This document shows, piece after piece, positions 9,163 to 63,445 of a stretch of DNA of 64,000 nucleotides. Below the pieces are notes generated by a model that was given only the letters and a program-made list of their open reading frames with translations, made no database searches and was not told the DNA's origin. The position numbers were made by a program, and so were the translations under genes. Numbering within the stretch: position 1 is the first letter of the stretch; each line of letters begins with the position of its first letter. This DNA comes from an uncultured Nitrosopumilales archaeon (GTDB lineage Archaea > Thermoproteota > Nitrososphaeria > Nitrososphaerales > Gagatemarchaeaceae): contig CAYYYU010000059.1 in the NCBI GenBank assembly GCA_964476175.1, positions 1,088-65,087 on the forward strand, written 5' to 3'.

Positions 9163-9196
9163 GGCCCACAATTTCGAAGGTCGAGCAGGTTCTGTT

Positions 9197-12100: not shown

Positions 12101-12532
12101 GCCAAAGACTGGTTCTCTGTCAGGGCCGAAGCCTACGGCATCCTGCAGAGGGAGGACGCGCTCAAGGAAATCGTCAGGCTCCTCGGTCCCGAGGCGCTCC
12201 CGGACGAGGAGAAACTGATACTCGATGTCGCGAGGATGATACAGATAGGGTTCCTACAGCAGAACGCCTACGACGACGTGGACGCCTACTGCAGCCCCCA
12301 GAAGCAGTACAGGATGATGAAGATGTTCGTTCAGTACCACCAGGAGGCGCTGAAAGCATTGCGTAACGGGGCCCCCCTGGCAAAGATCAGGGGGATGCAG
12401 GTCATCGCCCCGATGCTGAGGGCCAAGTTCGCGATAAAGAGCGAGGAACTCGACAAGCTGGACGCTCTCTCAAGACAGATGCTCGACGAATTCGCCTCCA
12501 TCAGCGGTCTCACGGAGGTCAGGGCTGCTTGA
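9197..12532 (+). CDS. atpA: A-type ATP synthase catalytic subunit A, interrupted by an intein
   Basis: Extein sequence '[27 protein letters not shown]', P-loop 'GAFGTGK|TV' split by the intein, and '[12 protein letters not shown]'. The track ORF begins at 8960, but that extension overlaps the divergent gene. TTG at 9197 gives a canonical N-terminus. The start is uncertain. Confidence 0.9.
9920..11467 (+). mobile_element. Intein (516 aa) with LAGLIDADG homing endonuclease in the AtpA P-loop
   Basis: Begins with Cys in 'GTGK|[13 protein letters not shown]' and ends 'PMILHN|T'. Endonuclease motifs '[11 protein letters not shown]' and '[12 protein letters not shown]'. Confidence 0.9.
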
Positions 12533-31987: not shown

Positions 31988-32051
31988 AGTATTAAACTGT
32001 TGGCCGGCCTTCGCAGAAAACTTAATCTAGCCATTCCGGCGGCATTCCACT

Positions 32052-32168
32052 CAGCCGGCCATAGCGTGTGGGTCCGACCCAGACTCGCTCCGATCCTGGA
32101 AGTCAAACCACGCGTCGTCAGGGTGATAGTGAGATGCGAGAGCTCTCGCGAAGTCCTGATGCCGGCGC
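32052..32168 (+). rRNA. 5S rRNA (stand-alone)
   Basis: 'GCCGGCCATAGCG...CCGATCCTGGAAGTCAAACC...GATGCCGGC'. The terminal helix GCCGGC/GCCGGC closes. About 117 nt. A TATA-like TTAATCT lies about 28 nt upstream. Confidence 0.85.
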
Positions 32169-32256
32169 CTATCCCGAACCACCTAGTGAGAATGTTGGAC
32201 TTCTGCTACAGAATGTTTAAGTCCGAGGCGTTGTAGGCGATTTTTGGGGCTTCGGC

Positions 32257-44854: not shown

Positions 44855-45180
44855 GTGTGGCGGTGGGGAGGGCCCGGGGGATAGCCGTCCCCGCGAGGCT
44901 GAAACCGGCTTCACGCAGCGGCCAGCAACCTTCGGGTAAAGCCATCTTCCCCGTCACCTGCGCCGTGTAGAGGAGACGAACTCACGCCGAAGCGGGCGGT
45001 CATGAGGAGCAGTCCTCTCGAAGGAGAGGTCCTGACCCCTAATTGCCGAATCGGGCGAGGTCCGGGAGGGAGCAGCCCTAAGGCGACGCGGCCACGCTGC
45101 CTCGTCTACGTGGGGGATTCTCTGCTGGCGAGACGGGGGCGGAGAGTGGTGGTGAACTCCGGAGGGCCTGCCGCCACTTT
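44855..45180 (+). ncRNA. SRP (7S) RNA
   Basis: Terminal pairing GTGGCGG...CCGCCAC. Helix-8 core 'GAGGTCCGGGAGGGAGCAGCCCTAAGGCG' (cf. 'CAGGTCCGGAAGGAAGCAGCC'). About 325 nt, followed by T6. Confidence 0.85.
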
Positions 45181-45396: not shown

Positions 45397-46275
45397 CTAG
45401 GTATTCGGAGCGAACCACCCAATACCCAGGACCCTGTCTAGGCGACGTCTTTTCCTAACAATAGTCAACCCTATCCCTTCACGAAACCTACCGAGGGACC
45501 TTCTCCGAACATGGATGGAATGGCAATCGACCCTACGTTGATAGGACTTCCCCCTTCTGGTTATAATGCTGCCCTTTCTTGTCCCTAGATACGGTCCTGT
45601 AGTCTCAATGCCAAAATATCTGCTCAAGAGATAACGGACGTATCGCAAGAGTTCCAAGTTAGAGTTACTCGCGGTCAAGGTTCCGTCCGTCGCCACACAG
45701 CCTTCTGAGTCGAAGAATCCCCTGGCGAACGCGGACACACACCGCTTGTTGTGTTCAATGAAAGGCACAAATGTCTGAAAGGGAGACCACAGGAATTGAT
45801 ACAGGCGGTAGCTCCCAAATTCGACGTGGATTTCTGCAGACGTTTTCCCCTTCCACAAGCGATGCGCTGGGATTCCCAATGATTTAGCCACAGATTGGTT
45901 GAACGCTTCCACGAATTCTCTATCGACTGCCTGCAGACGTGTCCTATACTGGTACGTCTTCTGTTTGAGGTTCAACGAGGCATCTCCCATCTTCACGCCG
46001 ATTACATATGCCAACTCGGGGGTAGAACGAGGGACGAAAGCGTGCCCGATTCTTGTTGGTGAAGCACTCCCATTGACCCAGTTCGACAATGTTGATTTCA
46101 CAAGCGAAATATGATACCTTTCGGTCACTTCCGCCCTAATCTCCCTGTAACTCCGGGAGTCTCTCCGGAGCTTAATCACTTCTTCGAAGAGTTTGAGTCT
46201 CGTAGCAAGGGGCAAATACCTGCCACGATGGATCACAACTTCGGTAGTACTTGATTCATGACCGATGTCTACCAT
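45397..46275 (-). CDS. Free-standing double-motif LAGLIDADG endonuclease with N-terminal HTH
   Basis: 292 aa. 'LAYVIGVKMGDASL' and 'FARGFFDSEGCV'. Lower G+C. Convergent with tRNA-Ser, 25 nt away. Confidence 0.8.
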   Translation of the reverse strand: MVDIGHESSTTEVVIHRGRYLPLATRLKLFEEVIKLRRDSRSYREIRAEVTERYHISLVKSTLSNWVNGSASPTRIGHAFVPRSTPELAYVIGVKMGDASLNLKQKTYQYRTRLQAVDREFVEAFNQSVAKSLGIPAHRLWKGKTSAEIHVEFGSYRLYQFLWSPFQTFVPFIEHNKRCVSAFARGFFDSEGCVATDGTLTASNSNLELLRYVRYLLSRYFGIETTGPYLGTRKGSIITRRGKSYQRRVDCHSIHVRRRSLGRFREGIGLTIVRKRRRLDRVLGIGWFAPNT

Positions 46276-52259: not shown

Positions 52260-53018
52260 TCAGCTGACCCTGGTTCCGTCGAGCAGGAATATGTCGGCGT
52301 CCTCGAGGCTCAGCGACCTCGAAGACAGCACCGGCCCGAACTGAAACGACCTGCTTCTGTTTATCGGCTGGCCTCCGACCAGCCGGTTGAACGGGGGCAT
52401 CACTGTGAGCTTTCCCACCCCCGTGGCCCCTGCCTCATATCCGGCGCCCTTCATCAGTTCCACGACGTCGTACTTCGCGAAGACCCATACCGATTCCCTG
52501 CTCCTCGTGCCCAGGTTGTCTCTCATTTCATACGTGAAGTGGGAGTGGCCGATCACCAGGTTCCTTGACGCTATCGCCTCCATCGACGGCCAGGCATGCC
52601 CGTGGGCAACGCCGATCCTCCCCCTTCCTTCGCCGAGGACCGCGCCGTGCGACGGGTACAACCTCACCCGCTGGGGGAGCACTGTCTTGATGCTGCCGTC
52701 GTGGTTCCCCGGGACGACCTCCACAGACCCGAAGATGTCCAGCATCGTATCGAAGAACCAGGGGACCGCCCCCCAGTCGACGTCCTCGACCTTCCCGACC
52801 GAATGCTTGACGTCCCCGAGGACCACGAGCTTGTCCGGGCCGTACTTCTCGGCGAGGTCCCTTACCCGCCCGACCATCCTTACGGTGTGAGAGGGAATCC
52901 TGAAGCCCTTCCGAGCCATCTCCTTCTCCAGACCCAGATGCAGGTCAGAGATGAGGAGGGTCTTCTCCCCAGAGTTCTCGAAAATGATTGCGGCCTCCCC
53001 CGGGACTATCTTGAGCAA
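52260..53018 (-). CDS. Calcineurin-like metallophosphoesterase (MPE)
   Basis: 252 aa. 'ISDLHLG', 'LGDVKH', 'GNHD', 'GHAW' and 'GHSH'. Last gene of the Lhr operon. Confidence 0.85.
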   Translation of the reverse strand: MLKIVPGEAAIIFENSGEKTLLISDLHLGLEKEMARKGFRIPSHTVRMVGRVRDLAEKYGPDKLVVLGDVKHSVGKVEDVDWGAVPWFFDTMLDIFGSVEVVPGNHDGSIKTVLPQRVRLYPSHGAVLGEGRGRIGVAHGHAWPSMEAIASRNLVIGHSHFTYEMRDNLGTRSRESVWVFAKYDVVELMKGAGYEAGATGVGKLTVMPPFNRLVGGQPINRSRSFQFGPVLSSRSLSLEDADIFLLDGTRVS

Positions 53019-53019
53019 G

Positions 53020-53703
53020 CTAACCTATCAGCGGGAGGATCTCCCCCTTGATGAAGGAGCTGAACTCGTTCATGTCCATCTTGCTGAACCCGGTTACTAC
53101 CGAGTTCCTCGTTACTCCAAGGACATAGCCTGTCTTCCTGCTCTTGATCACTATGTACCACAACTTCCCATGAGTCAGGTAGTCGTTGTAGAGGCTCGTG
53201 TTGCCGAGCTCGGCCCCGTAAAGCGAAAGTTTCGAGATGTTGGGGAGGTCCACCTGGTCGTAGAAGATGACCTTCGTGTCGTCAAAGTTCTCCTCATGGA
53301 ACTTCTTCATGGTCTCCGGGTCGATCCTGGCTTCGACCACCTGTCCGAGGCTCAGGAAGACTGCCTTGCTGATTTCGTTGGCTATGTTGTTGGCCCTGTT
53401 CTTCTTGTCGTACACAGTCAGGAAGATTCTATCCCTGAAGAGGTCGAACGAGAAAGGAGCCTCAAACGTCCTCGCTACTGAGACGGCCTTCCCCCTGTGC
53501 GGGACCACGAAGACTGTATCTGACGAGAATGTCCCTTCAAGGGTCCCCTTTCCAGCTCTCAGGTCGGTGATCTCTGAGACGAGCTTGAAATCCTGCCCCT
53601 CGACGCTGGTTTCAGTCTCGATCTTGAAGACCTTCAGCTTCTCCGCCAGGACGTCCATGTCGTAGTTTTCCCTGACCAGGAAGACCTTGCCGGCGAGGAC
53701 CAA
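53020..53703 (-). CDS. Uncharacterised 227-aa protein between Lhr and MPE
   Basis: Clean ORF with a 1-nt gap to the MPE and a 36-nt gap to Lhr. No motif recognised. Confidence 0.6.
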   Translation of the reverse strand: MVLAGKVFLVRENYDMDVLAEKLKVFKIETETSVEGQDFKLVSEITDLRAGKGTLEGTFSSDTVFVVPHRGKAVSVARTFEAPFSFDLFRDRIFLTVYDKKNRANNIANEISKAVFLSLGQVVEARIDPETMKKFHEENFDDTKVIFYDQVDLPNISKLSLYGAELGNTSLYNDYLTHGKLWYIVIKSRKTGYVLGVTRNSVVTGFSKMDMNEFSSFIKGEILPLIG

Positions 53704-53739
53704 ACTGGGCTGCCCCCGTCCTTCCTCGTTTATGGACTT

Positions 53740-56649
53740 TCAGTTCCCCCAGAACTGTCTGGTGGTCACGAACCTGATCTTCGCCTCGAGGAGAGCCCTG
53801 TAAAAGGCCTCCTCGTCTTCGTGCATCTCCGCGAGGATCCGGGACGCGGTCTGGGGCCCGATGCCGTACACGGTCTGGGCCACGACTGCCTTCTTCCCAT
53901 ACGAAAGCACGAGGTCCGCCCCCCTCCTCGCCTTCGCAAGCTCCCCTCTCTCCTCCTCGTTCAACGCCTCCCTCCTCCCCTTTCTCCTGATCAGTTCGGC
54001 CACCTTCGCAGTCCCCCAGTAGCACGGCACGAGCAGCCCGGCCCCGCACGCCCTGCACCGTGGCTCCTCGTCGAGCTCACCGACTGTGGTATCGCCCTGG
54101 TCCAGGCCGCACTTGAAGCAGACCAGCCCTATTCTTGTGCCGAAGATGCTCGCCTTCATCCGCTGGTACGAGGATTTCCCAAGCGAGTCCGGGGCCACTG
54201 CCTCCGGGACCTCTAGGTATCTGTAGAGGAGGCCGTAGGCTATGGGGGTCGGCCGGTCTCCCGCCCTGAACGTCTGAACAGCAATCTCGCCTTCCGCGAC
54301 CATAGTGAGTATCTCCTTGCCCCTCGCCATGTCGATCAGGTCCCGCCCGGTCTCCTGGAGGGCTTCTTCGAGGATGGGAGTCCTCTCGAACCTCGTAGGG
54401 AGGGAGCAGAGATTCGGGTGGGCCATCAGCTTCCCCCGCTTCAGAGCCCCGAACCGCTCCGCGACCTGCTTGACCCTTGCCGGGAATGGGAAGTTCCTCT
54501 GCGCAGCCACAGCGTACGTCCTCTCAAGCTCGTCGGGGGAGAGCCCCATGAGCTCCTTGGCCATGGAGTCGAGGTCAAGGTCCTCCGTGTCAGCAGTAAG
54601 CTCCATCAGGAGCCTGTACCCGTCGAGCCACCAGAGCCTTACAAGCCCCCTCCTCGAAAGTATCTCCTCAAAGACGTAGGCAAACGTCCTGTTGACCGAT
54701 TCCCCGAAGCACATGTGCACGATCAGGTACTTCCCGAACCCCTCGAAGAGAACCAGGTTGTCTGACGGCACTGGCGCCCCCATCTTCTTGTGCTCAGCGA
54801 TCTCGTCGACTACGAGCGCCCTTGCCGCTGCGTCCCCGCGTATCTGCTCGAGGACCCTCTCCAGTGCTGTCTCGTCCCCGAGTGCTTCGGAGATCTCCCT
54901 CCTCAGCTTCCCGGTCCTCTGGGCAAGGTCGAAGGGGATCGGGAGCATCTCGCCGTCCCACGTAGCCAGCGCGGCCATGGGGTCCTCGACCGGAGTGACG
55001 TAGATCTTCCTGTCGTCTGCTATCTGCTCCACCTGCCAGACCTTGCCCTTGCAGATGAAGTGGACCCCGACCTTCGCCTTCAGGAGCACGAACTCCTCCC
55101 CGAGTATCCCGACGGACTGGTTGGTCGTCACGTCGATGACCAGATACCTCGTCTCGTCCGGTATCATGGAGAGGTTCTCGAAGTAGTAATCCCGTGTCAG
55201 CCGGGTCCTCGACAGTCGTCGTCCGTCGAGCCGTATCTTCCTCAACTCCCCCAGGTACCCGACCGTTCTCCAGAACGCGTCCTCCGGCAGCCCGCTGAAC
55301 GGGGCCGCCTTCCTAATCTCGCTCAGCAGTTCGTTCCCGTCCACCGTCTCCACGTCCATCAGGTAGCCTGCCACCTGATGGGACAGCACATCGAGGCAGT
55401 TGGAGTAGGGCCGAGTCGGCTCGATCCTCCCCTCCGACGCGCCCAGAATGCTCGACGACGATTCCAGTATGTCGTCCGCAGACACTGTGACGAGAACTCC
55501 CTCCGAGACCCTCCCGAGCCTGTGCCCGCTTCTCCCCACCCTCTGCACCAGGGAGGTGACCTGCCTCGGAGACATGTACTGCACCACAAGGTCGACCGAG
55601 CCGATGTCAATGCCAAGCTCGAGGGTCGAGGTGCAGACCAGGGCCTTCAGCTGTCCTAACTTGAACGCCTGCTCGACCCTTTCCCTCTCCTCCCTTGGGA
55701 GAGACCCGTGGTGGACTCCGACATCCTTCCGCAGCCGCGACAGCTTCTCCCCCAGCATCTCGCCAACGGTCCTGCTGTTGACGAAGATCAGAATAGACGT
55801 ATGGTCTTCGACGAGCCTGTCAATCCTCGTGAGCCTCGCTGCCAGGTCAGGGGCTGAATAGGTCTCCCTCGCAGCTGTCTGGTCCCCCGGGTCGGGCACA
55901 GGATACTCTATCCTGTACGTGAACTCCTTGGGGGCGTCCGCCATCACCACCTTGTGTTCCCTCTCCCCGAATAGGAACCTGGCGGCGACTTCAGGCGTTC
56001 CGACCGTGGCCGAGAGTGCCACGAGCTGGTACTCCCCGGCGACCTTCCTCAATCTCTGCAGGCCCACGCAGAGCTGCACCCCTCGCTTGCTCTCGACCAG
56101 GTTGTGCAGCTCATCCACTACCACGGCCTTCAGGTGCCCCAAGTTCTGCCTCATCCTGCTCCCAGGGAGCACTGCTTGCAGAGTCTCAGGGGTCGTGACG
56201 AGGACGTCCGGAGGGTGTGAGGACTGTCTCGTGCGCTGTTTCTGCGGGGTGTCCCCGTGTCTGACATCCACTGTGAGACCGAGCCTGGAGCACCAGACTT
56301 CGAGCCGTTTCAGCATGTCCCGGTTCAAGGCTCTCATCGGAGTGATGTAGAGCAACGAGATCCCTTCCCCGTGCCCTTCGGCGACGATCCTACCCAACAG
56401 GGGGAGGAGGGCCGCCTCTGTCTTCCCCGAGCCAGTCGGTGCCACAATGAGGACGTTCTCCCTGGCGGCGACAATGGGCCAGGCCTGTACCTGGGGTGGG
56501 GTCGGTTCCGTTATCCCCGCGGCTGCGAGGAAATCCCTCACCGGTGGTTCGAGGTGCTCGAACGGGTTCTGGGGGGTCACTTTCACAGTCGAGAGAGCGA
56601 CTGTCGATTTAAGCCCTTTCGCGAACTCAGAATCCACAAACATGCGCAA
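53740..56649 (-). CDS. lhr: Lhr-type large SF2 helicase (paralogue 1)
   Basis: 969 aa in the track. 'APTGSGKTEAA', 'DELH', 'SATV', 'QRVGRSGHR', 'YYFENLSMIPDE' and a C-terminal zinc ribbon. ATG at 56643 is a likelier start than TTG at 56649. Confidence 0.85.
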   Translation of the reverse strand: MRMFVDSEFAKGLKSTVALSTVKVTPQNPFEHLEPPVRDFLAAAGITEPTPPQVQAWPIVAARENVLIVAPTGSGKTEAALLPLLGRIVAEGHGEGISLLYITPMRALNRDMLKRLEVWCSRLGLTVDVRHGDTPQKQRTRQSSHPPDVLVTTPETLQAVLPGSRMRQNLGHLKAVVVDELHNLVESKRGVQLCVGLQRLRKVAGEYQLVALSATVGTPEVAARFLFGEREHKVVMADAPKEFTYRIEYPVPDPGDQTAARETYSAPDLAARLTRIDRLVEDHTSILIFVNSRTVGEMLGEKLSRLRKDVGVHHGSLPREERERVEQAFKLGQLKALVCTSTLELGIDIGSVDLVVQYMSPRQVTSLVQRVGRSGHRLGRVSEGVLVTVSADDILESSSSILGASEGRIEPTRPYSNCLDVLSHQVAGYLMDVETVDGNELLSEIRKAAPFSGLPEDAFWRTVGYLGELRKIRLDGRRLSRTRLTRDYYFENLSMIPDETRYLVIDVTTNQSVGILGEEFVLLKAKVGVHFICKGKVWQVEQIADDRKIYVTPVEDPMAALATWDGEMLPIPFDLAQRTGKLRREISEALGDETALERVLEQIRGDAAARALVVDEIAEHKKMGAPVPSDNLVLFEGFGKYLIVHMCFGESVNRTFAYVFEEILSRRGLVRLWWLDGYRLLMELTADTEDLDLDSMAKELMGLSPDELERTYAVAAQRNFPFPARVKQVAERFGALKRGKLMAHPNLCSLPTRFERTPILEEALQETGRDLIDMARGKEILTMVAEGEIAVQTFRAGDRPTPIAYGLLYRYLEVPEAVAPDSLGKSSYQRMKASIFGTRIGLVCFKCGLDQGDTTVGELDEEPRCRACGAGLLVPCYWGTAKVAELIRRKGRREALNEEERGELAKARRGADLVLSYGKKAVVAQTVYGIGPQTASRILAEMHEDEEAFYRALLEAKIRFVTTRQFWGN

Positions 56650-56676
56650 TGTCTAAATCCGTCCCGGGATTGCGCA
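56643..56676. promoter_or_regulatory. 8-bp perfect inverted repeat TGCGCAAT-N18-ATTGCGCA in the divergent Lhr / SMC-like promoter region
   Basis: Arms at 56643-56650 and 56669-56676. A TATA-like TCTAAAT lies between the arms and AAATTT just beyond the right arm. The left arm overlaps the Lhr ATG. Confidence 0.35.
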
Positions 56677-56686
56677 GCTACGAAAT

Positions 56687-58693
56687 TTGTCAAGAAGAGC
56701 AGAAGAGGTCTCGCAGGAGAGGGGGCTCCCCCGCACAAGCATAAAGGAGATAATCCTCGAGAACTTCATGAGTTATGAATACGCCCGGATACCCCTAAGG
56801 GACGGCCTCAACCTGATAGTAGGACCCAACGGCGCCGGCAAGTCCTCGGTCCTCCTGGCCATATCCGTGGCCTTCGGTCAGGCCTACACCGAGCGCTCCC
56901 GGAAGCTCTCCGACCTGATACGGCGTGGGAAGGACATAGCCAGGGTCTCACTGGTCTTCGACAATTCGCAGCAGAACGGCCGTCGGCCGATCCCCTACTC
57001 GAAATCGGATACCTTCATGCTCAGCCGCTATCTCAGGCGGGACGGCTCCTACTGGTTCGAGGCGGACTACAAGGAGATTGACAAGAGCGAAGTCGTGAGA
57101 CTTCTCGGGGAGTTCGGAATCAACCCTGACAACCTGCTGATCATCATGCATCAGGGGATGATCGAAGAGCTTGGAGCAGTCACTCCGCAGGAGAGGCTCA
57201 GAATGGTGGAGGAGGCCGTCGGATTCTCCGAGTACAGGCAGCGAATCCTGCTTGCAGAGCAGGAGCTGGGGGGCCTTATCGGCGAAGAGAGCTCGCTCCT
57301 TCAGCTTATCGACAACGCCAACCAGGCCCTGGAATACTGGAAGCAGGTCTACGACAGGTTCCAAGAAAAGAAAAGACTGCAGGAGCACAGGGAGCTCCTC
57401 GCGAAGGAGCTGCTCTGGAGCACAGAATCCAAGCTGGCGAAGTCCCTCGCGTCCGTCCAGGAGAAGATAGGCGCCAAGACAAGGGCGCTCGAGGACCTAA
57501 GGTCGCAGCAACAGGAAGCGGCAAAGGACGCAGAGGAGGCGTACAAGACCCTCCTGGACAGGCAGGTGGAACTCAGGAAGCTGTACTACGCGCTTGTAAG
57601 GGCTGAAAGCGAGAAGGCGAAGGACGAGGCCTCCCGGGGCGCCTTCGCCTCATTGAAGCAGGAAATGGATAGCCTGACGGCCGCTGCCGACGAGATTCTC
57701 GCCCAAGGTACGCAGAGAAGCGCGAAGAGGGTGAAAGAGCTCGTCGAATATGTGGCAGGAAAGGCCTCTGCGGCGGAGGAGGACGCGGGGAGGCGCAGAA
57801 CGGAGCTGGAGAGGGAGGTCTCCTCCCTCCAGCCTGAGATTGGCAGGACCGAGGAGCTGATCAGGAAGACGATGGAGTCCTGCATCTCGCTCAGGGTGAA
57901 GTCCGAAGTCCTCTCCTACAAGGCCAGGGTGACCGAGTCCGACCTCAGGGAGCTCGAAAGGAGCGCGCGCGAATACGCGGGCGAGCTGGAGAAGTTGAGG
58001 CCTGACCTGGAAAAGGCAGGGGCTCGCATGGAGACCTTGAGGCAGCCCTACGAAGTATCCGAGGAGCTGAAGTTGGTCTCTGCGCATCTTCAGAAGATGC
58101 AGGACGTACCGGACGAGGCGGAGAAGATATACAACGATTACTCTGGCAGCATAGAAGAGCTCAAGCTGAAGCTGGCAAAGCTGCAGGAAAACAAGAAGGC
58201 GCTTCTGGCAGAGCTCCAGTCAAGGAAGAAGGTCTGGAGGGAGGCCATGGAGAGCCTGGTCATGTCTACCGACCCCGTCTACCAGTCCGTGCTTGCGGCC
58301 TCAGACGCCTCAGGTTTCATAAAGTTCGAAGAGGGGGCCGAGATAGAAGAAGCGGGGATAGACCTGTACGTGGGCTTCAGGGGAGGAGCGCCGACCACTC
58401 TCGACCCATTCACCCAGAGCGGTGGGGAGCGCTCGGTGGCCCTAGTGGCGTTCATCCTTTCTCTTCAGGCGAGAATAGTCTCCCCGCTGCGAGCTATGGA
58501 CGAGTTCGACATCCACATGGACCCGAAGAACCGGGAGGCGATGTTCAAGATGATTCTCTCTCAGATGAGACAGCACGAGGCTTCCCAATACATCGTCATC
58601 ACCCCCTCAATCCTCACTGTCTTCGACAAGAGCGCGCACGTCATCACAGTGCAGGCGGTGCACGGTCCGTCAGAGGTCAGGGAGCTGAAGTAG
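56687..58693 (+). CDS. Hingeless SMC-family ATPase with SMC5/6-like head motifs
   Basis: 668 aa. 'LENFMSY', 'GPNGAGKSS', 'HQG', then about 350 aa coiled coil without a hinge or zinc hook, then 'SGGERSVALVAFILSL', 'SPLRAMDEFDIHMDPKNR' and 'QYIVITPS'. Confidence 0.7.
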   Translation: MSRRAEEVSQERGLPRTSIKEIILENFMSYEYARIPLRDGLNLIVGPNGAGKSSVLLAISVAFGQAYTERSRKLSDLIRRGKDIARVSLVFDNSQQNGRRPIPYSKSDTFMLSRYLRRDGSYWFEADYKEIDKSEVVRLLGEFGINPDNLLIIMHQGMIEELGAVTPQERLRMVEEAVGFSEYRQRILLAEQELGGLIGEESSLLQLIDNANQALEYWKQVYDRFQEKKRLQEHRELLAKELLWSTESKLAKSLASVQEKIGAKTRALEDLRSQQQEAAKDAEEAYKTLLDRQVELRKLYYALVRAESEKAKDEASRGAFASLKQEMDSLTAAADEILAQGTQRSAKRVKELVEYVAGKASAAEEDAGRRRTELEREVSSLQPEIGRTEELIRKTMESCISLRVKSEVLSYKARVTESDLRELERSAREYAGELEKLRPDLEKAGARMETLRQPYEVSEELKLVSAHLQKMQDVPDEAEKIYNDYSGSIEELKLKLAKLQENKKALLAELQSRKKVWREAMESLVMSTDPVYQSVLAASDASGFIKFEEGAEIEEAGIDLYVGFRGGAPTTLDPFTQSGGERSVALVAFILSLQARIVSPLRAMDEFDIHMDPKNREAMFKMILSQMRQHEASQYIVITPSILTVFDKSAHVITVQAVHGPSEVRELK

Positions 58694-58695
58694 GC

Positions 58696-59454
58696 TTGGA
58701 CAAAGAGAAACTGGAAGACCTATTGCGGGTGATTGCACTGTGCCAGTCTGTCGAATCGAGTAGTGCGAACCCCTTTGATGTGGATATCATAGAGAAATTG
58801 CTTATCTTGAAGCAACGGCTCCCCGAGCTAAAGTTTCTAGACGAACTCCTTGTCGACTCAGAGGCTATGCTGGAACTGTCTCGGATAATTCGTCTCCAAG
58901 ACCAATATCTCAAATCTCGAGCATCCTCTCTCTACATCGACCCCTTGCTGATTCAGCTCAAGGTAAAGCTCCTGACGAAGAACGAACTGAGTGAGGCTTT
59001 TGTCAAGAGCTGGCATCCGATAGTCCAGCTCGACCAGATCTCCCCGAGGGGGCTTGAGAAGGCCTTCGTGTACTGGAGGGACCTCGCACCAATGGCCGAG
59101 AGGTTCAAGGAGGAGTTCGGCAACTACGGGGTCAGGCCCGGGATCGTAGACTACCCGGAACTCATCAAGCTGGGAGTCTTCACCCAGCAGCAATTCGAGA
59201 AGGACCTGAACGACCTGCACCAGACCCTGCTCCAGAAGTCCGACGGCAACTGGATCGACTACAGGGAGTTCATCGGCGCAGAGGCCTTCGAGAAGAAGGT
59301 CCTCAAGGCATACCTCCTCGCATTCCTCATCAGCGAAGGCAGGGCGTCCCTCCGCACGGACCCCCTCACAGGCAAGGTCTGGACGATGGGCCTGAGCGAG
59401 AAGGCGGTGGGGGTCCCGAAGTCGGTCGCTATATCCGTAACCAGTGATACATGA
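58696..59454 (+). CDS. ScpA/kleisin-like protein
   Basis: 252 aa. N-terminal 'NPFDVDIIEKLL...AMLELSRIIRLQ' and a C-terminal winged helix 'VLKAYLLAFLISEGRASL'. Confidence 0.6.
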   Translation: MDKEKLEDLLRVIALCQSVESSSANPFDVDIIEKLLILKQRLPELKFLDELLVDSEAMLELSRIIRLQDQYLKSRASSLYIDPLLIQLKVKLLTKNELSEAFVKSWHPIVQLDQISPRGLEKAFVYWRDLAPMAERFKEEFGNYGVRPGIVDYPELIKLGVFTQQQFEKDLNDLHQTLLQKSDGNWIDYREFIGAEAFEKKVLKAYLLAFLISEGRASLRTDPLTGKVWTMGLSEKAVGVPKSVAISVTSDT

Positions 59455-60011
59455 TGGAAGCCACAGACAAAGCCCTGCTTGAGAGAAAGGTCAGGAAGGC
59501 CTTCCAGATTCTCGTACTCCAGCGGAGCAGGAATCCGGGGGTAAAAGGGTGGGAGATGAAGAGGCACCTCGGCCGGGAATACAAGAAGATCATAGAGGTT
59601 CTTTCGGAGGACGTGTCGTCGATGGGGATGGAGGTCTTCGAAGTGAAGGGGCCGGACGGGACGGACGACACCTCTCGCTTCCTCCTGAGGTTCAAGGAGC
59701 CACCGACCGTCAGCGAGGCCGAGACGTCCGGGATCAGGATCGACGACCTGGCGGTGCTGGCCGCCACCATCGCCTTCGTCAATTCGAAGCAGGGGCGAGC
59801 ATCCCGCCGGGAAGCGGAGCACTTCCTGCGCGAAAAGTTCCCGAAGTGGAGGGTCGAGTATTCCCTGGACCGGTACGTCAAGAGGGGCTACCTGGAGCAG
59901 GATGACAGGTCGCTTCTGCACATAGGCTGGAGGACACGCGCGGAGGTGGACGAGAAGACCCTGATGACTATGATCCTCTCAAGAGGATCCAAGGAAGTAG
60001 CGCCGTCGTAG
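59451..60011 (+). CDS. Tandem winged-helix 'kite' protein with MAGE/Nse3-like sequence pattern
   Basis: 186 aa. 'AFQILVLQRSRNPGVKGWEMKRHLGREYKKI', 'LAVLAATIAFV' and 'RYVKRGYLEQ...HIGWRTRAEVDEKTLMTMIL'. 4-nt overlap with the kleisin gene. Confidence 0.55.
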   Translation: MMEATDKALLERKVRKAFQILVLQRSRNPGVKGWEMKRHLGREYKKIIEVLSEDVSSMGMEVFEVKGPDGTDDTSRFLLRFKEPPTVSEAETSGIRIDDLAVLAATIAFVNSKQGRASRREAEHFLREKFPKWRVEYSLDRYVKRGYLEQDDRSLLHIGWRTRAEVDEKTLMTMILSRGSKEVAPS

Positions 60012-62888
60012 CGCCTCTCGTTCCCCTTCTATGATCGTCTCGACGATGTCCCTGCCTTCCTTCTGCATCTTCGCAGCCAGGTTTGCCGCTTCAGAGAGGG
60101 TTATCCCCCTCCCCGCCATCAGCATCTCGGCCGCATGCCCGTACTTCTTCCTGAGCTCGGCCGACTTCCTTACCGACTCGACCAGCTTCAGATTCCTCCC
60201 CCGGAGGTCAGACCTGCTCCTGGCCTTCATCGCGAGCGAGAAGACGTTTTCGTACGAGTCCGTCGAGAGTCCGATCGCGTCCTTCCCGCAATACGCGCAC
60301 TTCTCCAGTCCCTCCATGTCCCGCACCCTCTTCAGCTCAAGATAGTTCCAGCAGTTCGTGCAGACTGCCACCAGGAAGGTGTCGGATATCCTTGCCCCCG
60401 TTGATTGTCTGAGTAGGGCCCTGAGCCGCTCCGGGGACACGATCTCCCCCCTCCGGCTGATCTCCTCCACGCCTATCCTCGCTATCGGCGAAAGCCCCTC
60501 GTACGCTATCTCTTTGACCTCGATCTCCCCCCTGCTCATCCCGTCAATCACCTTGGCCGCTCCGTCAACGTCCAGGTCGTCGTGGAAGATCATGTTCATC
60601 GCTTCATCGTACACCGGTGTGTCCCGAAGCGCCTCTATCAGGCCGGATATCGAGACGCTCGCGTAGTCTGCGTCCTTCGCAATCGCCCCGCACTTCTTCC
60701 CCGCATGGATAAGTCTCCGTTTGAAGATCCCGGACCTTTCTACAGCCTCCCCCGTGGCCGCCCTGAGGTCCGCGTCCTTCAGCTCTCTCAGTAGCGTCAG
60801 AACGGTCGACGGCGCGACGTCTGCCTCGATGACCAGGCGGTAGGGGTCTTGGTGGACAGCCACGGACTGCCCAATCTTCTCGGAGATCTTGTGGCCGAGC
60901 AACCTCGCGAGCAACCGGTTGACCTTGTGGCCGAAGGCTGCCTGGATTATGAGGTACCTGTCCCACCTTTCGATCGTGACGACCTTCTCAGACGGGATCG
61001 GGAGCTTCGCCGCGAGCTGTTCTTCGACCTCCTTCAGCGCCTCCAGGAGTGCATCCTTCGAGACCGGATACTTTCCGCTCAGTTCTTCTACGAAGGACTC
61101 CGCTACTCCCTTCTCAATCGCCTCGGCATATCTCCTCCTGATTGTCCCGACTTCCTGAGCTACCTCGAAAGGAACTGGAATCTCGTCCCCCACCCAGTTC
61201 GGGACGGCTCCGGTCGGATCCTCCTCGGCTTTGACGTAGACCTTGTTCCCATAGATCTGCTCTATCTTCCAACACCGCCCGGCCTCCACGAACTTGACCC
61301 CGACCTCCCCGTATTCAGAAACGAAGGCCTCGTCTAGCGCCCCGACGAAGTTCTCCCCTTCGATCACGAGGTACTGCCGCTCGTCAGGAATCATCGACAG
61401 GTTGTCGAAGTAGTACTGGAACAACGGCTTGACGTCCCTTGCCCTGGAGACTCTTCCGTCAGATTCGCTGTAGTAAGCAAGCCTCGGGTACCGCTCGCGC
61501 ATGTATGTCAACACGCGCTTCAGCTTCAGGTCGTCCATCCCCGAGTAGGCGTAGCTCCGCCTGAGGAGCGCGGCTATGTCGCTGAAGTTCCAGTTGCTCT
61601 GCTCGATTAGCAGCCCAGCGACTTGGTGCACCGCCACGTCGTATGGCGCTTCCAGTGGGACGAGAGGCTCCAGCTCTCCGTTGATCGATTTCCTGCAGAG
61701 GACCGCCGCCTCGAGGGTGTCGTCGGAGTCCTGCGTGACGACCAACCCGTTGGACACCTGGCCGATTCTGTGTCCGCTTCTCCCCACCCTCTGGATGAGC
61801 CTGGTCACCTGCCTTGGGGAGTTGTACTGGACCACGAAGTCCAGGAATCCGATGTCGATGCCGAGCTCCAGGCTGCTCGTACAGATCACCCCCAAGAGCT
61901 TCCCGTCTTTCAGATTCCTTTCAACAGCCTCCCTGGTCGCCTTCGAAAGCGAGCTGTGATGGATTCCCACCGGGAAATCGGGGTCCCAGACTCTGAACCT
62001 GTTCGCAAGGGCCTCGGCCTCGCTGCGCGTGTTGGTGAACACGAGGACCGACTTGTACTTCTCGATCGACTCCCGTATCACCCTGAGCCTAGCCGCCACC
62101 TCCGGGAAAGAGTAGATCGCTTCCGCGAATTCCTTGTCGCGGGGTGTCGCTCTCGGGGCCACCACGTGGAGTGACAGGCTCTTCTCGACAGGAACCCTGA
62201 CCACCTCGCACGGCCTTCCGCTTCCGACGAGGAACTGGGCTATCCTTTCCGGTGAGCCGACTGTGGCAGACAGGCCCACAGTCTGGAATTCGTTATCCAC
62301 AGCATCCCTTAGCCGCTCGAGCCCCACGCTAAGCTGGCTCCCCCTCTTGTCCTCAGCCAGTTCGTGGACCTCGTCGACCACCACCCACCTGAGCTTGGAA
62401 AGGTTCTGCCTAATCCTCCTGCCGACGAGCAGTATCTGGAGGGTCTCGGGGGTCGTGATCAGGATGTCCGGGGGCGCGAAGCTCATGTTTGTCCGCTCCG
62501 CTTGGGTGCTGTCCCCGTGTCTGACTCCGAGTCTGATGTCGAACCTCTTGCACCACCACTGCATCCTCTCCAGCATGTCCCTGTTGAGCGCCCTGAGCGG
62601 GGTGATGTACAGCAGCTTGGTCCCCTTCACCCTCGCCGGGCCTTCTCTGACCATGGCGTCGAGAATGGGGAGGAGCGCCGCCTCAGTCTTCCCGGTCCCG
62701 GTGGGAGCCATCAGCAGGGCGTTCCGCCCCTCGATCACAAGGGGGACCAGTTTCATCTGCGGGTCTGTCGGGGACCCGAACCCCTTCTCCTTCAGGGCCT
62801 CGAGCAGGGGAGGAGAGAACAGCTCGAAGACGTTTTGCTCAGCCAAGCTGCAGTCCTCTCGATGTGCCAACAGGGTCGGGCGTGACAT
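59979..62888 (-). CDS. lhr: Lhr-type large SF2 helicase (paralogue 2)
   Basis: 969 aa. 'APTGTGKTEAA', 'DEVH', 'SATV', 'QRVGRSGHR', 'YYFDNLSMIPDE' and a C-terminal 'CTNC...CAYCG'. Roughly 35% identical to paralogue 1 by eye. Confidence 0.85.
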   Translation of the reverse strand: MSRPTLLAHREDCSLAEQNVFELFSPPLLEALKEKGFGSPTDPQMKLVPLVIEGRNALLMAPTGTGKTEAALLPILDAMVREGPARVKGTKLLYITPLRALNRDMLERMQWWCKRFDIRLGVRHGDSTQAERTNMSFAPPDILITTPETLQILLVGRRIRQNLSKLRWVVVDEVHELAEDKRGSQLSVGLERLRDAVDNEFQTVGLSATVGSPERIAQFLVGSGRPCEVVRVPVEKSLSLHVVAPRATPRDKEFAEAIYSFPEVAARLRVIRESIEKYKSVLVFTNTRSEAEALANRFRVWDPDFPVGIHHSSLSKATREAVERNLKDGKLLGVICTSSLELGIDIGFLDFVVQYNSPRQVTRLIQRVGRSGHRIGQVSNGLVVTQDSDDTLEAAVLCRKSINGELEPLVPLEAPYDVAVHQVAGLLIEQSNWNFSDIAALLRRSYAYSGMDDLKLKRVLTYMRERYPRLAYYSESDGRVSRARDVKPLFQYYFDNLSMIPDERQYLVIEGENFVGALDEAFVSEYGEVGVKFVEAGRCWKIEQIYGNKVYVKAEEDPTGAVPNWVGDEIPVPFEVAQEVGTIRRRYAEAIEKGVAESFVEELSGKYPVSKDALLEALKEVEEQLAAKLPIPSEKVVTIERWDRYLIIQAAFGHKVNRLLARLLGHKISEKIGQSVAVHQDPYRLVIEADVAPSTVLTLLRELKDADLRAATGEAVERSGIFKRRLIHAGKKCGAIAKDADYASVSISGLIEALRDTPVYDEAMNMIFHDDLDVDGAAKVIDGMSRGEIEVKEIAYEGLSPIARIGVEEISRRGEIVSPERLRALLRQSTGARISDTFLVAVCTNCWNYLELKRVRDMEGLEKCAYCGKDAIGLSTDSYENVFSLAMKARSRSDLRGRNLKLVESVRKSAELRKKYGHAAEMLMAGRGITLSEAANLAAKMQKEGRDIVETIIEGEREALRRRYFLGSS

Positions 62889-63019
62889 TCACCTTTTGTA
62901 GAACGCGGAGAAACTCTCGCCCCCTGACCCACTCCAATAAGTTTGCGGTCGGGGAGATAGGCCGTGGGCATTCCGCCGGCTAGCCTTAAATAGAACGATA
63001 TAACATAGGTGATAAATTC

Positions 63020-63445
63020 ATGATCAACCCCTACGAGATGGTTTCGCGTTCAGCCCTGCCTGCGCTGAGGGCCATGGTGGCCAAACGGATGCAGGGAGAG
63101 TACCACATGACCCAGCAGCAGGTTGCAAAGCGCCTCGGTGTCACGCAGGCCTCGATCAGCAACTACGCCCGCAGGGCGAGAGGCTCGATGTTCAACTTCG
63201 AGACTGACCCCACTGTCTCCAAGGCTGCCGACAGAATCGCCGAAATACTCTCCGGAGAGAACCCAAACGAACGCGAAGCACTCCAGACGATGACTGAAGT
63301 GTGCGACTACATCCGGTTCAACCGCCTGATGTGTTCGTTCCACCAAGACCTCGAGCCGACCTACGACATCAACAGCTGTGCCGCCTGCGAAGGGGTCCTG
63401 ACCGGAAAGGAATTTCAAAGGCTGAAGATGGCAGTCGGTCAGTAG
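63020..63445 (+). CDS. HTH transcriptional regulator with C-terminal Cys/His cluster
   Basis: 141 aa. 'MTQQQVAKRLGVTQASISNY' XRE-type HTH, and 'C..H....C..C' in the tail. Confidence 0.65.
   Translation: MINPYEMVSRSALPALRAMVAKRMQGEYHMTQQQVAKRLGVTQASISNYARRARGSMFNFETDPTVSKAADRIAEILSGENPNEREALQTMTEVCDYIRFNRLMCSFHQDLEPTYDINSCAACEGVLTGKEFQRLKMAVGQ

What the first reader, a model, noticed from the sequence alone, without database searches (positions are those of the whole stretch)
56687..60011. Compact SMC5/6-like ATPase, kleisin and MAGE/Nse3-like kite operon in an archaeon
Three tightly coupled genes (2-nt gap, then 4-nt overlap).

Gene 1 (668 aa) has split SMC head halves: Walker A GPNGAGKSS, Q-loop HQG, signature SGGERS and Walker B MDEFD. 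They are joined by about 350 aa of heptad-rich sequence. I see no Gly-rich hinge and no CxxC zinc hook.

The head motifs resemble eukaryotic SMC6/SMC5 more than condensin-type Smc, Rad50 or RecN:
- 'LENFMSY' versus SMC6 'LKNFMCH'.
- 'SGGERSVALVAFILSL..SPLRAMDEFDIHMDPKNREAMFKMIL' versus SMC6 '[42 protein letters not shown]'.
- 'QYIVITPS' replacing the H-loop histidine, as in the SMC5/6 'Q(F/Y)xxLTP' motif.

Gene 2 looks like ScpA: 'NPFDVDII' (cf. 'DPWDIDI') plus a C-terminal wHTH.

Gene 3 reads like a MAGE homology domain:
- 'AFQILVLQRSRNPGVKGWEMKRHL..YKKI' versus NSMCE3 '[24 protein letters not shown]..YKDI'.
- 'RYVKRGYLEQ..HIGWRTRAEVDEKTLMTMIL' versus '[32 protein letters not shown]'.

The eukaryotic sequences are recalled from memory. 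If this holds, it is a minimal, presumably homodimeric, prokaryotic relative of the Smc5/6-Nse4-Nse3 core. That is relevant both to the origin of Smc5/6 and MAGE proteins and to possible anti-plasmid or viral DNA surveillance.
Basis: partly seen in the sequence, partly recalled or inferred. Interest (0 to 1): 0.85.

Follow-up and report, generated by a model that had tools for sequence, protein, structure and literature searches.

The report
Archaeal hinge-less SMC5/6-type complex operon
Three tightly coupled genes in a soil thaumarchaeon encode a compact relative of the eukaryotic Smc5/6–Nse4–Nse1/3 genome-maintenance complex; this kind of operon is already published for archaea, but its short, hinge-less arms and a conserved Lhr helicase neighbour are not mentioned in the papers I could search.

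Summary
Three co-directional ORFs lie at 56687-58693, 58696-59454 and 59451-60011, with a 2-nt gap and then an ATGA overlap.

- **Gene 1 (668 aa)** is an SMC-family ATPase. Its best matches among solved structures are Smc5 and Smc6, ahead of SMC2, prokaryotic Smc and Rad50.
- **Gene 2's family** matches the Nse4 C-terminal domain, not ScpA.
- **Gene 3** folds confidently as a tandem winged-helix kite. Its nearest structures are NSMCE3/MAGE-G1, Nse3 and Nse1. ScpB is absent from the top 50.
- **Arms:** the model of gene 1 shows about 158-residue arms joined by a 6-residue loop. There is no hinge, and none of 65 homologues has a CxxC hook.
- **Organism:** a Nitrososphaerales archaeon.

An archaeal "SMC5/6-related" SMC clade that includes Thaumarchaeota was published in 2021. 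Archaeal SMC5/6-related SMC, Nse4-like kleisin and Nse1/3-like kite operons were described in 2024/25.

Two points I did not find in those papers:
- The short hinge-less SMC is the norm across Nitrososphaerota, Bathyarchaeia and Methanomethylicia (572-695 aa).
- A convergent Lhr helicase abuts the operon in 60 of 82 assessable loci.

Function is inferred: an ATP-driven DNA clamp in repair or fork maintenance.

The parts
56687..58693 (+). g1: 668-aa SMC5/6-related SMC ATPase. N-head about 19-180, arm helix 181-338, 6-residue apex loop 339-344, returning arm 345-537 with two conserved breaks (445-453, 471-477), C-head 541-660. No hinge domain.
   Evidence: Pfam SMC_N 2.7e-35 and no SMC_hinge hit at E<=1. 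PDB sequence hits are best to Smc5 and Smc6. AF2 model has pLDDT 84.3. Foldseek top hits are Smc6 and Smc5. The TTG start is presumed; the N-terminal 17 residues are conserved only among close relatives.
58696..59454 (+). g2: 252-aa kleisin with an Nse4-type C-terminal winged-helix domain and a kleisin-type N-terminal helical domain.
   Evidence: Weak single-sequence hit to the ScpA N-domain 6ivh (E=0.025). The family profile (A3) hits human EID3/NSMCE4-type at 8.4e-4 and yeast Nse4 at 9.9e-3, covering profile positions about 145-262. Pfam Nse4_C matches 10 of 15 members, best 2.4e-7. The window protein alone has no Pfam or NCBIfam hit.
59451..60011 (+). g3: 186-aa kite (tandem winged helix), Nse1/Nse3(MAGE)-like, with no RING domain.
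   Evidence: AF2 pLDDT 93.2, pTM 0.81. Foldseek: 5hvq_D MAGE-G1 1.2e-6, 7dg2_C Nse3 4.4e-6 (TMq 0.65), 5hvq_C and 7dg2_A NSE1 (TMq 0.58-0.67), then MukE and JetB; no ScpB in the top 50. The family profile against PDB sequences hits Nse3/MAGE-G1/NSMCE3 and NSMCE1. Pfam SMC_Nse1 matches 8 of 36 members.
59979..62888 (-). Convergent 969-aa Lhr-type helicase whose 3' end overlaps g3 by 33 nt. It is a conserved neighbour and a possible functional partner (inference).
   Evidence: Pfam DEAD, Helicase_C, WH_Lhr and DEAD_assoc. An orthologue lies within 400 nt of the kite stop, on the opposite strand, in 60 of 82 assessable loci. These include other Nitrososphaerota, Methanomethylicia (L080) and a divergent lineage (L086-L088).
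52260..56649 (-). Divergent upstream cluster: a second Lhr paralogue (53740-56649), a 227-aa protein of unknown function (53020-53703) and a metallophosphoesterase (52260-53018). This is context only and is conserved only among close relatives.
   Evidence: Pfam hits. The two Lhr paralogues are 37.6% identical. The upstream copy is syntenic in most of the closely related Nitrososphaerales loci (L002-L038), and lies elsewhere or is not seen in the more distant ones.

Best explanation
The locus is a member of the archaeal 'SMC5/6-related' SMC-kleisin-kite complexes.

**Shown**
- g1 is an SMC-family ABC ATPase whose head halves are closest to eukaryotic Smc5/Smc6.
- g2 belongs to a kleisin family with an Nse4-type C-terminal winged-helix domain.
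- g3 is a tandem winged-helix kite closest to Nse3/MAGE and Nse1.
- The three genes are translationally coupled. Their order is conserved across Nitrososphaerota, Bathyarchaeia and Methanomethylicia.
- The catalytic residues, including the Walker B Glu, are invariant in the family.
- The SMC has short arms (about 158 residues, roughly 23 nm) that turn at a 6-residue loop without a hinge or a zinc hook.

**Inferred, by analogy with Smc-ScpAB and Smc5/6-Nse1/3/4**
- Two copies of g1 engage their heads around two ATP.
- One kleisin bridges the neck of one head and the cap of the other.
- A kite homodimer sits on the kleisin's middle.
- DNA is clamped on top of the engaged heads by the kleisin and kite.
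- Without a hinge, the two arms cannot close a separate SMC compartment covalently. The complex would then work as an ATP-gated DNA clamp or short rod rather than a long-range loop extruder.

**Inferred from context**
- The complex is a chromosomal housekeeping genome-maintenance factor acting at stalled forks or recombination intermediates, possibly together with the adjacent Lhr helicase. It is not a mobile defence system.
For: **Identity of g1:**

**Identity of g2:**

**Identity of g3:**

**Coupling and synteny:** for the junctions. Searches show SMC of 572-695 aa, then kleisin of about 250-277 aa, then kite of about 184-204 aa. One search shows the same in a lineage whose kite is only 29% identical, with an SMC of 593 aa.

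**Active ATPase:** Walker A, Q-loop, signature and D605/E606/D608 are invariant in 65 sequences.

**No hinge:**
- AF2 gives helix 181-338, loop 339-344 and helix 345-444.
- The apex (about 300-380) is the least conserved stretch, and about 80 residues of it are deleted in Methanomethylicia.
- There is no Pfam SMC_hinge match.
- No CxxC occurs in any of the 65 sequences.

**Housekeeping context:**
- GC content is like its surroundings.
- Neighbours are the A-ATPase, ribonucleotide reductase, enolase, SRP RNA and 5S rRNA.
- 283 relatives occur among GTDB species genomes.
- The flanks are stable in dozens of species.

**Repair link:** the Lhr helicase abuts the operon in 60 of 82 loci. There is an Lhr plus metallophosphoesterase cluster upstream.

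**Published phylogenies** place a TACK aSMC clade, including Thaumarchaeota, next to SMC5+6 (PMC8665677). They also describe SMC5/6-related operons with Nse4-like and Nse1/3-like subunits (10.1101/2024.01.07.573240).
Against: - No interaction, stoichiometry or DNA binding was tested. No multimer prediction was available.
- The window's own g2 and g3 have no significant single-sequence hit to any curated family. Their assignment rests on family profiles and, for g3, a predicted fold.
- The kleisin profile hits are modest (8.4e-4 to 1e-2) and cover only the C-terminal half.
- The apex of the g1 model has lower confidence (pLDDT 61-77). A monomer model cannot show how, or whether, the arms dimerise.
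- Lhr adjacency is not universal. It is absent in the Bathyarchaeia loci L069 and L074 and in L077, L081 and L084. It could be inherited synteny without functional meaning.
- I built no phylogeny here, so placement of this exact sequence in the published SMC5/6-related clade is inferred from similarity ranking.
Confidence: 0.8

Rival explanations
1. It is an SMC-like anti-plasmid or anti-virus defence module of the Lamassu/LmuB or Wadjet type. A short-armed sensor ATPase detects foreign DNA.
For: - g1 matches PADLOC models mad3 (3e-28) and LmuB (1.8e-18, nearly full length).
- LmuB is about 650 aa with about 20-nm coiled coils (PMC10586767), a similar size to g1.
- Kites also occur in Wadjet (JetB appears among the fold hits).
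- Human Smc5/6 restricts viral DNA (PMC10586767).
- Lhr-like helicases occur in BREX (BrxHI match).
Against: - Matches to Smc5/6 are far stronger (109 bits with the single sequence, 176-180 bits with the profile).
- g2 and g3 have no PADLOC match.
- There is no effector gene (LmuA or JetD nuclease) in or next to the operon.
- The Walker B Glu is retained, whereas LmuB generally carries E-to-Q. There is no zinc hook.
- The locus sits in a housekeeping region with stable flanks in dozens of species, not in a variable island.
Confidence: 0.07
2. It is a divergent, shortened version of the canonical prokaryotic condensin Smc-ScpA-ScpB and carries out bulk chromosome organisation.
For: - The best NCBIfam match of g1 is SMC_prok_A (1e-47).
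- The g2 N-terminus weakly resembles the ScpA N-domain (E=0.025).
- The gene order SMC-kleisin-kite is the same as in archaeal condensin-type operons (gene cluster examples).
Against: - The SMC_prok_A score (162.6 bits) is far below its cutoff of 729. NCBIfam covers bacterial and archaeal proteins, so it would not be expected to hold an SMC5/6 model (my assumption, not checked).
- Against solved structures, Smc5 and Smc6 outrank Smc by 12-16 orders of magnitude.
- The kleisin family matches Nse4_C, not ScpA.
- The kite matches Nse1/Nse3, and ScpB is essentially absent (1 of 36 members at E=0.072; none in the top 50 fold hits).
- A published table reports a separate ScpA-like plus ScpB-like neighbouring pair in related Nitrososphaerales, for example UBA183.
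Confidence: 0.06
3. It is a Rad50-, ASRP/ClsN- or arcadin-4-type SMC-related protein with unrelated small partners.
For: NCBIfam lists Rad50 (about 1e-17), arcadin-4 (1.2e-11) and ASRP (1.9e-10) among the hits. The short coiled coil resembles SMC-related proteins more than true SMCs.
Against: - All these scores are 40-63 bits, against cutoffs of 300-1087, and mostly cover only the Walker A region.
- There is no zinc hook, which most ASRPs and Rad50 have.
- There is no Mre11 neighbour.
- The partners are demonstrably kleisin- and kite-like.
Confidence: 0.02

Closest known systems
Archaeal 'SMC5/6-related' SMC complexes (Yoshinaga & Inagaki 2021, PMC8665677; Yoshinaga et al. 2022, PMC9389158; van Hooff et al. 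bioRxiv 10.1101/2024.01.07.573240)
   Same: - An SMC whose head groups with SMC5/6.
- An Nse4-related kleisin and an Nse1/3-related kite.
- Genes encoded as neighbours in the order SMC-kleisin-kite.
- Found in TACK archaea, including Thaumarchaeota, Bathyarchaeota and Verstraetearchaeota.
- A presumed homodimeric SMC.
   Different: There is no difference in kind; this locus is a member.

Not found by word searches of the main texts of PMC8665677 and the van Hooff preprint, and of the preprint's supplements; in PMC9389158 'hinge' occurs only in other contexts:
- The 572-695-aa length.
- The absence of a hinge.
- The conserved Lhr neighbour.

Both phylogenetic studies removed the coiled-coil region before analysis. 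In the van Hooff table, related Nitrososphaerales families score only for the kite. The authors state that their SMC and kleisin sets were downsampled.
Eukaryotic Smc5/6-Nse1-Nse3-Nse4 core
   Same: - Head sequence motifs, including QY..ITP after Walker B.
- An Nse4_C-type kleisin C-terminus.
- A tandem winged-helix kite with the Nse1/Nse3 (MAGE) fold.
   Different: - One SMC gene instead of the Smc5 plus Smc6 pair, and one kite instead of Nse1 plus Nse3.
- The kite is only 186 aa, with no room for the RING domain that Nse1 carries.
- No Nse2, Nse5 or Nse6 is recognisable in the operon.
- The arms are roughly half as long or less, and there is no hinge.
Prokaryotic Smc-ScpA-ScpB (condensin type)
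   Same: A three-subunit SMC-kleisin-kite architecture with the same gene order. The kleisin is about 250 aa. The SMC is presumably a homodimer and the kite presumably a dimer.
   Different: - Smc is about 1100-1200 aa with about 47-nm arms (abstract of PMC5344682, seen) and a hinge.
- The kite here is not ScpB-like, and the kleisin C-terminus is Nse4-like.
Lamassu LmuB and Rad50-like short coiled-coil ABC ATPases
   Same: Overall size (about 650 aa) and arm length (about 20 nm). There is a full-length but weak profile match.
   Different: - LmuB is Rad50-like, often has a zinc hook and a Walker B E-to-Q change, and partners with LmuA effectors and LmuC.
- Here the Glu is kept, there is no hook and no effector, and the partners are a kleisin and a kite.
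MukBEF and Wadjet JetABC
   Same: Kite-containing SMC complexes. MukE and JetB appear as weaker fold matches of g3.
   Different: MukB and JetC are long, have hinges and are distant in sequence. JetC3 scores only 8.7e-11, on the coiled coil alone. There is no JetD.

Membership tests
SMC proteins sensu stricto | Split ABC ATPase head with Walker A, Q-loop, signature motif and Walker B/D-loop | tested here: met
   Pfam SMC_N 2.7e-35. Motifs are located and invariant in the family.
SMC proteins sensu stricto | Intramolecular antiparallel coiled-coil arm between the head halves | tested here: met
   The AF2 model has helices 181-338 and 345-537 folding back on each other. The arm is short, about 158 residues.
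SMC proteins sensu stricto | Globular hinge dimerisation domain at the arm apex | tested here: not met
   No Pfam SMC_hinge hit at E<=1. A 6-residue loop forms the apex in the model. The apex is the least conserved region and is partly deleted in Methanomethylicia.
SMC proteins sensu stricto | Partner kleisin and kite/hawk subunits | tested here: met
   The adjacent genes g2 (Nse4_C-type family) and g3 (kite fold). Physical binding was not tested.
SMC5/6-related clade | Head sequence closer to SMC5/SMC6 than to SMC1-4, prokaryotic Smc, Rad50, RecN or MukB | tested here: met
   Ranking in phmmer and hmmsearch against PDB sequences and in Foldseek.
SMC5/6-related clade | Placement inside the clade in a head-domain phylogeny | not tested
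   No tree was built here. Published trees place TACK aSMCs, including Thaumarchaeota, with SMC5+6 (PMC8665677).
SMC5/6-related clade | Nse4-type kleisin | tested here: met
   The family profile hits EID3 and Nse4 only. Pfam Nse4_C matches 10 of 15 members. The window protein alone is below detection.
SMC5/6-related clade | Nse1/Nse3-type kite | tested here: met
Eukaryotic Smc5/6 holo-complex | Smc5/Smc6 heterodimer, Nse1 RING, Nse2 SUMO ligase, Nse5/6 | tested here: not met
   The operon has a single SMC gene and a single 186-aa kite made only of two winged helices. No further operon genes are present.
MAGE homology domain (Pfam PF01454) | Sequence match to the MAGE model at its threshold | tested here: not met
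   g3 has no MAGE hit at E<=1. Only 2 of 36 family members match, with a best E of 0.021.
MAGE homology domain (Pfam PF01454) | Tandem winged-helix fold of Nse3/MAGE | tested here: met
   Foldseek: 5hvq_D 1.2e-6, 7dg2_C 4.4e-6 (TMq 0.65), MAGE-A4 3.1e-4. Nse1 chains match about as well (E 2.6e-5 and 8.2e-5; TMq 0.58-0.67), so the kite is Nse1/3-like rather than MAGE-specific.
ScpA/ScpB (condensin-type kleisin and kite) | Sequence or fold match to ScpA and ScpB | tested here: not met
   ScpA appears only at E=0.025, on the N-terminal 70 residues, and not with the profile. ScpB matches 1 of 36 members at E=0.072 and is absent from the top 50 fold hits.
Lamassu (LmuABC) | LmuB with LmuA effector (and LmuC); frequent zinc hook and Walker B E-to-Q | tested here: not met
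   LmuB model scores 1.8e-18, but g2 and g3 have no PADLOC hit. There is no effector gene nearby. The Glu is retained and there is no CxxC.
Rad50 / ASRP / arcadin-4 | Model score above cutoff; zinc hook | tested here: not met
   Scores of 40-63 bits against cutoffs of 300-1087. No CxxC.

The most novel reading that the evidence does not exclude
The TACK-archaeal SMC5/6-related complex may be a naturally minimal, hinge-less Smc5/6.

- It would be a homodimeric, roughly 23-nm-armed ATP-gated DNA clamp held together only by heads, kleisin and kite.
- It would work as a unit with the adjacent Lhr helicase on stalled forks or recombination intermediates.
- If so, the DNA-clamping and repair function of Smc5/6 would not require a hinge-closed SMC compartment or loop extrusion.
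- The Smc5/6-helicase partnership seen in eukaryotes would then have an archaeal counterpart.
Probability: 0.3. Interest if true: 0.65.

Novelty: new member of a known kind. Interest (0 to 1): 0.4.

Why it matters
The locus itself confirms what two recent phylogenomic studies already concluded. Archaea of the TACK group carry a second SMC complex that is the prokaryotic counterpart of eukaryotic Smc5/6, with the ancestors of Nse4 and of Nse1/Nse3/MAGE proteins.

The useful additions are practical:
- **Size.** In Nitrososphaerota, Bathyarchaeia and Methanomethylicia the complex is very small: an SMC of 572-695 aa, a kleisin of about 250 aa and a kite of about 185 aa.
- **Architecture.** It lacks a hinge.
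- **Neighbour.** It usually sits back to back with an Lhr repair helicase.

That makes it an attractive minimal system for structural and biochemical work on how Smc5/6-type complexes clamp DNA. It also raises a concrete question: how does an SMC-kleisin-kite machine work without a hinge?

Tried and rejected
- **Single-sequence scans of g2 and g3 gave nothing usable.** This covers Pfam and NCBIfam and PDB sequences for g3. The only 'hits' were Sec61_beta (E=0.092) and a hydrolase (E=0.059), which I regard as noise.
- **A spurious top hit.** The best PDB hit of the kite profile, the designed helical repeat 7udk, comes from summing four weak repeat matches and was discarded.
- A 12-sequence subset worked.
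- **Source record not found.** Exact look-ups of the window's own g1 and g3 products were not on record. The source assembly could not be named, and the rest of the genome could not be checked for a canonical Smc-ScpAB.
- **Most divergent kites uninformative.** Look-ups of P0338, P0313 and P0295 returned contigs too short upstream to show an SMC. P0269 was informative.
- **Defence-system reading rejected.** See the first rival explanation.
- **Long ORFs are artefacts.** The 771-1029-aa 'SMC' ORFs come from taking the earliest in-frame start, not from longer proteins. Database homologues are 572-695 aa.
- **Zeros in the van Hooff table are not a missed detection.** I first read the zeros for Nitrososphaerales SMC and kleisin that way. 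The supplement states that those two protein sets were downsampled, so I make no such claim.

Full report
**Observation**

- g1, 56687-58693, 668 aa
- g2, 58696-59454, 252 aa
- g3, 59451-60011, 186 aa

Reading the junctions confirms a 2-nt gap between g1 and g2 (TAG-GC-TTG). It also confirms an ATGA overlap between g2 and g3.

g1 has these motifs:
- Walker A GPNGAGKS at 46-53
- Q-loop HQG at 155-157
- Signature SGGE at 578-581
- Walker B AMDEFD at 603-608
- QYIVITP at 634-640
- One cysteine and no CxxC

The organism is a Nitrososphaerales (thaumarchaeal) archaeon. This follows from the names attached to near-identical homologues and loci. One of them is labelled Candidatus Gagatemarchaeaceae. 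The window also holds an archaeal SRP RNA and a 5S rRNA.

**Gene 1**

Pfam gives SMC_N at 2.7e-35 and no hinge match. NCBIfam's best model is SMC_prok_A, but at 162.6 bits against a cutoff of 729. The Rad50, arcadin-4, ASRP, RecF and RecN models are much weaker.

Against all PDB chain sequences, the single sequence ranks as follows:

| Target | E-value |
|---|---|
| Yeast Smc5 | 2.9e-30 |
| Yeast Smc6 | 1.3e-24 |
| Human SMC5 / SMC6 | about 1e-23 / 1e-22 |
| Pyrococcus Smc | 3.4e-17 |
| SMC3 | about 1e-16 |
| Rad50 | about 1e-8 |

The C-terminal head half alone scores 57.5 bits with Smc5. It scores about 23 bits with the Pyrococcus Smc C-half.

A 65-sequence family profile widens the gap:

| Target | E-value |
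|---|---|
| SMC6 | 1e-51 |
| Smc5 | 8e-51 |
| SMC2 | 1.7e-39 |
| Prokaryotic Smc | 3.8e-35 |
| Rad50 | about 1e-8 |

An AlphaFold2 model built on that alignment has mean pLDDT 84.3. It shows:
- N-head, about 19-180
- One continuous helix, 181-338
- A 6-residue loop, 339-344
- A returning helix, 345-537, with two breaks at 445-453 and 471-477
- C-head, 541-660

The breaks fall in a well-conserved stretch. By position they resemble the SMC 'joint'; that is my inference. The Pyrococcus head-plus-joint structure 5xei ranks third among the fold hits. Foldseek's top hits are Smc6 and Smc5 chains.

The apex region (about 300-380) is the least conserved part of the protein. About 80 of its residues are missing in Methanomethylicia homologues. 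None of the 65 homologues has a CxxC in the arm.

The arm is about 158 residues. At 0.15 nm per residue, which is my own conversion, that is roughly 23 nm.

**Gene 2**

Alone, g2 has no curated-family hit. It gives only a weak match of its first 70 residues to a ScpA N-domain (E=0.025).

I assembled 15 orthologues from syntenic loci. Their profile hits only Nse4-type kleisins among solved structures:
- Human EID3 at 8.4e-4
- Yeast Nse4 at 9.9e-3
- Both over the C-terminal winged-helix region
- No ScpA

Pfam Nse4_C matches 10 of the 15 orthologues, best 2.4e-7. So g2 is a kleisin whose C-terminal domain is of the Nse4 type.

**Gene 3**

Alone, g3 matches nothing. An exhaustive search of 1.84 billion representative proteins found 116 relatives.

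A 36-sequence alignment shows two conserved blocks and a near-invariant GYL...GWR..AE.D motif. Its profile gives these hits against PDB sequences:
- Xenopus Nse3 at 2.8e-5
- Human MAGE-G1/NSMCE3 at 1.1e-4 and 4.2e-4
- NSMCE1 at about 8e-3
- Several MAGE-A and MAGE-B proteins, weakly
- No ScpB

The nominal top hit, a designed repeat protein, is an artefact of summing repeats. Pfam SMC_Nse1 matches 8 of 36 members, MAGE 2 and ScpB 1.

The AlphaFold2 model is confident (pLDDT 93.2, pTM 0.81) and shows two winged-helix domains. Foldseek against the PDB returns, in order:
- MAGE-G1 (1.2e-6)
- Xenopus Nse3 (4.4e-6, TMq 0.65)
- Human and Xenopus NSE1 (TMq 0.58-0.67)
- MAGE-A4
- Yeast Nse3
- MukE and JetB
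- No ScpB in the top 50

g3 is therefore an Nse1/Nse3 (MAGE)-like kite. It is not decidably closer to Nse3 than to Nse1, and it has no RING domain.

**Conservation**

A scan of one genome per GTDB species found 283 kite relatives, and 80 loci were fetched. In these, the order SMC, then kleisin, then kite recurs.

| Subunit | Size range |
|---|---|
| SMC | 572-695 aa |
| Kleisin | about 250-277 aa |
| Kite | about 184-204 aa |

The lineages are Nitrososphaerales, other Nitrososphaerota, Bathyarchaeia and Methanomethylicia. A lineage whose kite is only 29% identical has the same arrangement, with a 593-aa SMC.

Database homologues of g1 are all 572-695 aa. JGI's pipeline already labels several of them 'structural maintenance of chromosomes protein 5'. 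The short, hinge-less form is thus the family norm, not a truncation.

**Context**

Both flanking 969-aa genes are Lhr-type helicases, with DEAD, Helicase_C, WH_Lhr and DEAD_assoc domains. They are 37.6% identical to each other.

The downstream one is convergent and overlaps g3 by 33 nt. An orthologue sits within 400 nt of the kite stop, on the opposite strand, in 60 of 82 assessable loci:
- It is present in other Nitrososphaerota, Methanomethylicia (L080) and the divergent lineage L086-L088.
- It is displaced by 0.4-6 kb in some loci.
- It is absent in the Bathyarchaeia loci examined.

The upstream Lhr is followed on its strand by a 227-aa protein of unknown function and a metallophosphoesterase. 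That pairing recalls the bacterial Lhr-MPE repair operon. The comparison draws on an abstract seen (PMC7826289) and on general knowledge.

The wider window is housekeeping:
- An intein-containing A-ATPase subunit A
- An intein-containing ribonucleotide reductase
- Enolase
- Nramp
- SRP RNA
- 5S rRNA

GC content is uniform. PADLOC gives g1 generic SMC-like hits (mad3 3e-28, LmuB 1.8e-18) and gives g2 and g3 nothing. There is no effector gene nearby.

**Mechanism**

*Shown:*
- The three protein identities
- Their translational coupling
- Invariant catalytic residues
- The hinge-less hairpin arm

*Inferred, by analogy with Smc-ScpAB and Smc5/6-Nse1/3/4:*
- g1 forms an ATP-engaged head dimer.
- A single kleisin bridges the neck of one head and the cap of the other.
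- A kite homodimer sits on the kleisin.
- DNA is clamped on the heads.

Without a hinge, the arms cannot close a separate SMC compartment. I therefore favour an ATP-gated clamp or short rod acting locally over a long-range loop extruder.

The conserved Lhr neighbour and the housekeeping setting point to fork or recombination-intermediate maintenance rather than defence. None of this was tested.

**Comparison with the literature**

- Yoshinaga & Inagaki (2021, PMC8665677) found a clade of archaeal SMCs that groups with SMC5+6. The sequences came from Crenarchaeota, Verstraetearchaeota, Thaumarchaeota and Bathyarchaeota.
- The term 'SMC5/6-related archaeal SMC' is used in their 2022 paper.
- van Hooff et al. 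(bioRxiv 10.1101/2024.01.07.573240) add Nse4-related kleisins and Nse1/3-like kites. They show that these are organised in operons. They propose a whole-complex duplication in the TACK-Asgard ancestor.
- Their table lists an Nse1/3-related kite in Nitrososphaerales families related to this window, including UBA183, JACPRH01 and JACQRY01. The SMC and kleisin columns are zero there. The authors state that those two protein sets were downsampled.

Searches for 'hinge' and 'shorter' in the two main papers, and in the preprint's supplements, found no comment on arm length or hinge loss. Searches for 'Lhr' in combination with SMC turned up nothing relevant. Both studies removed the coiled-coil region before analysis.

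**Verdict**

The locus is a new member of an already described kind. What may be new is the recognition that this clade is uniformly short-armed and hinge-less, and that it is commonly paired with an Lhr helicase. Interest is moderate.

Noticed in passing
window 59979-62888 (-) and 53740-56649 (-): Two paralogous 969-aa Lhr-type helicases (37.6% identical) bracket the operon. The downstream one overlaps the kite gene's 3' end by 33 nt. An orthologue abuts the kite in 60 of 82 related loci across several archaeal classes.
   Followed up: partly
window 52260-53703 (-): Downstream of the upstream Lhr on the same strand lie a 227-aa protein with no Pfam match and a calcineurin-like metallophosphoesterase. 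This resembles the bacterial Lhr-MPE DNA-repair gene pair.
   Followed up: no
window 8960-12532 (+): A 1190-aa A/V-type ATPase catalytic subunit is interrupted by an intein with a LAGLIDADG homing-endonuclease domain (Intein_splicing 365-836, LAGLIDADG_3 637-706).
   Followed up: no
window 15012-19472 (-): A 1486-aa ribonucleotide reductase large subunit carries an intein-splicing match (residues 185-464) and a separate LAGLIDADG match (1098-1151), which could mean two inteins. An NrdD-like reductase with an ATP-cone lies next to it at 19605-21716.
   Followed up: no
window 45397-46275 (-), next to SRP RNA at 44861-45173: A free-standing 292-aa ORF with a LAGLIDADG_3 domain sits just downstream of the archaeal SRP RNA gene.
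   Followed up: no
window 1-64000: ARAGORN finds no tRNA gene in the whole 64 kb. A lone 5S rRNA gene is at 32051-32170.
   Followed up: no
homologues of g3 (P0044, P0059, P0061, P0062): NCBI records name several orthologues of the kite 'SEC61-beta family protein'. This probably stems from a sub-threshold Sec61_beta match (E=0.092, 13 bits against a cutoff of 27, residues 89-110) and looks like a misannotation.
   Followed up: partly
L086 14762-15412 and L088 12209-12859: In a divergent lineage with the same SMC-kleisin-kite-Lhr arrangement, an ERCC4 (XPF/Hef-type) nuclease gene lies about 6 kb downstream of the kite.
   Followed up: no
window 63020-63445 (+): A 141-aa protein has an N-terminal HTH (HTH_3 / ParB-HTH matches) and several cysteines near its C-terminus. 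It lies downstream of the second Lhr gene. Its function is unknown.
   Followed up: no
window 56650-56686: Only 37 nt separate the divergent starts of the upstream Lhr gene and g1. Both promoters must overlap, or the transcripts are leaderless. g1 and g2 both appear to start with TTG.
   Followed up: no
window 59259-59921 (-) and many others in 54000-62900: Long antisense or out-of-frame ORFs (100-290 aa) overlap the real genes throughout this 57-62% GC region. They are mechanical ORF-finder products, not genes.
   Followed up: partly
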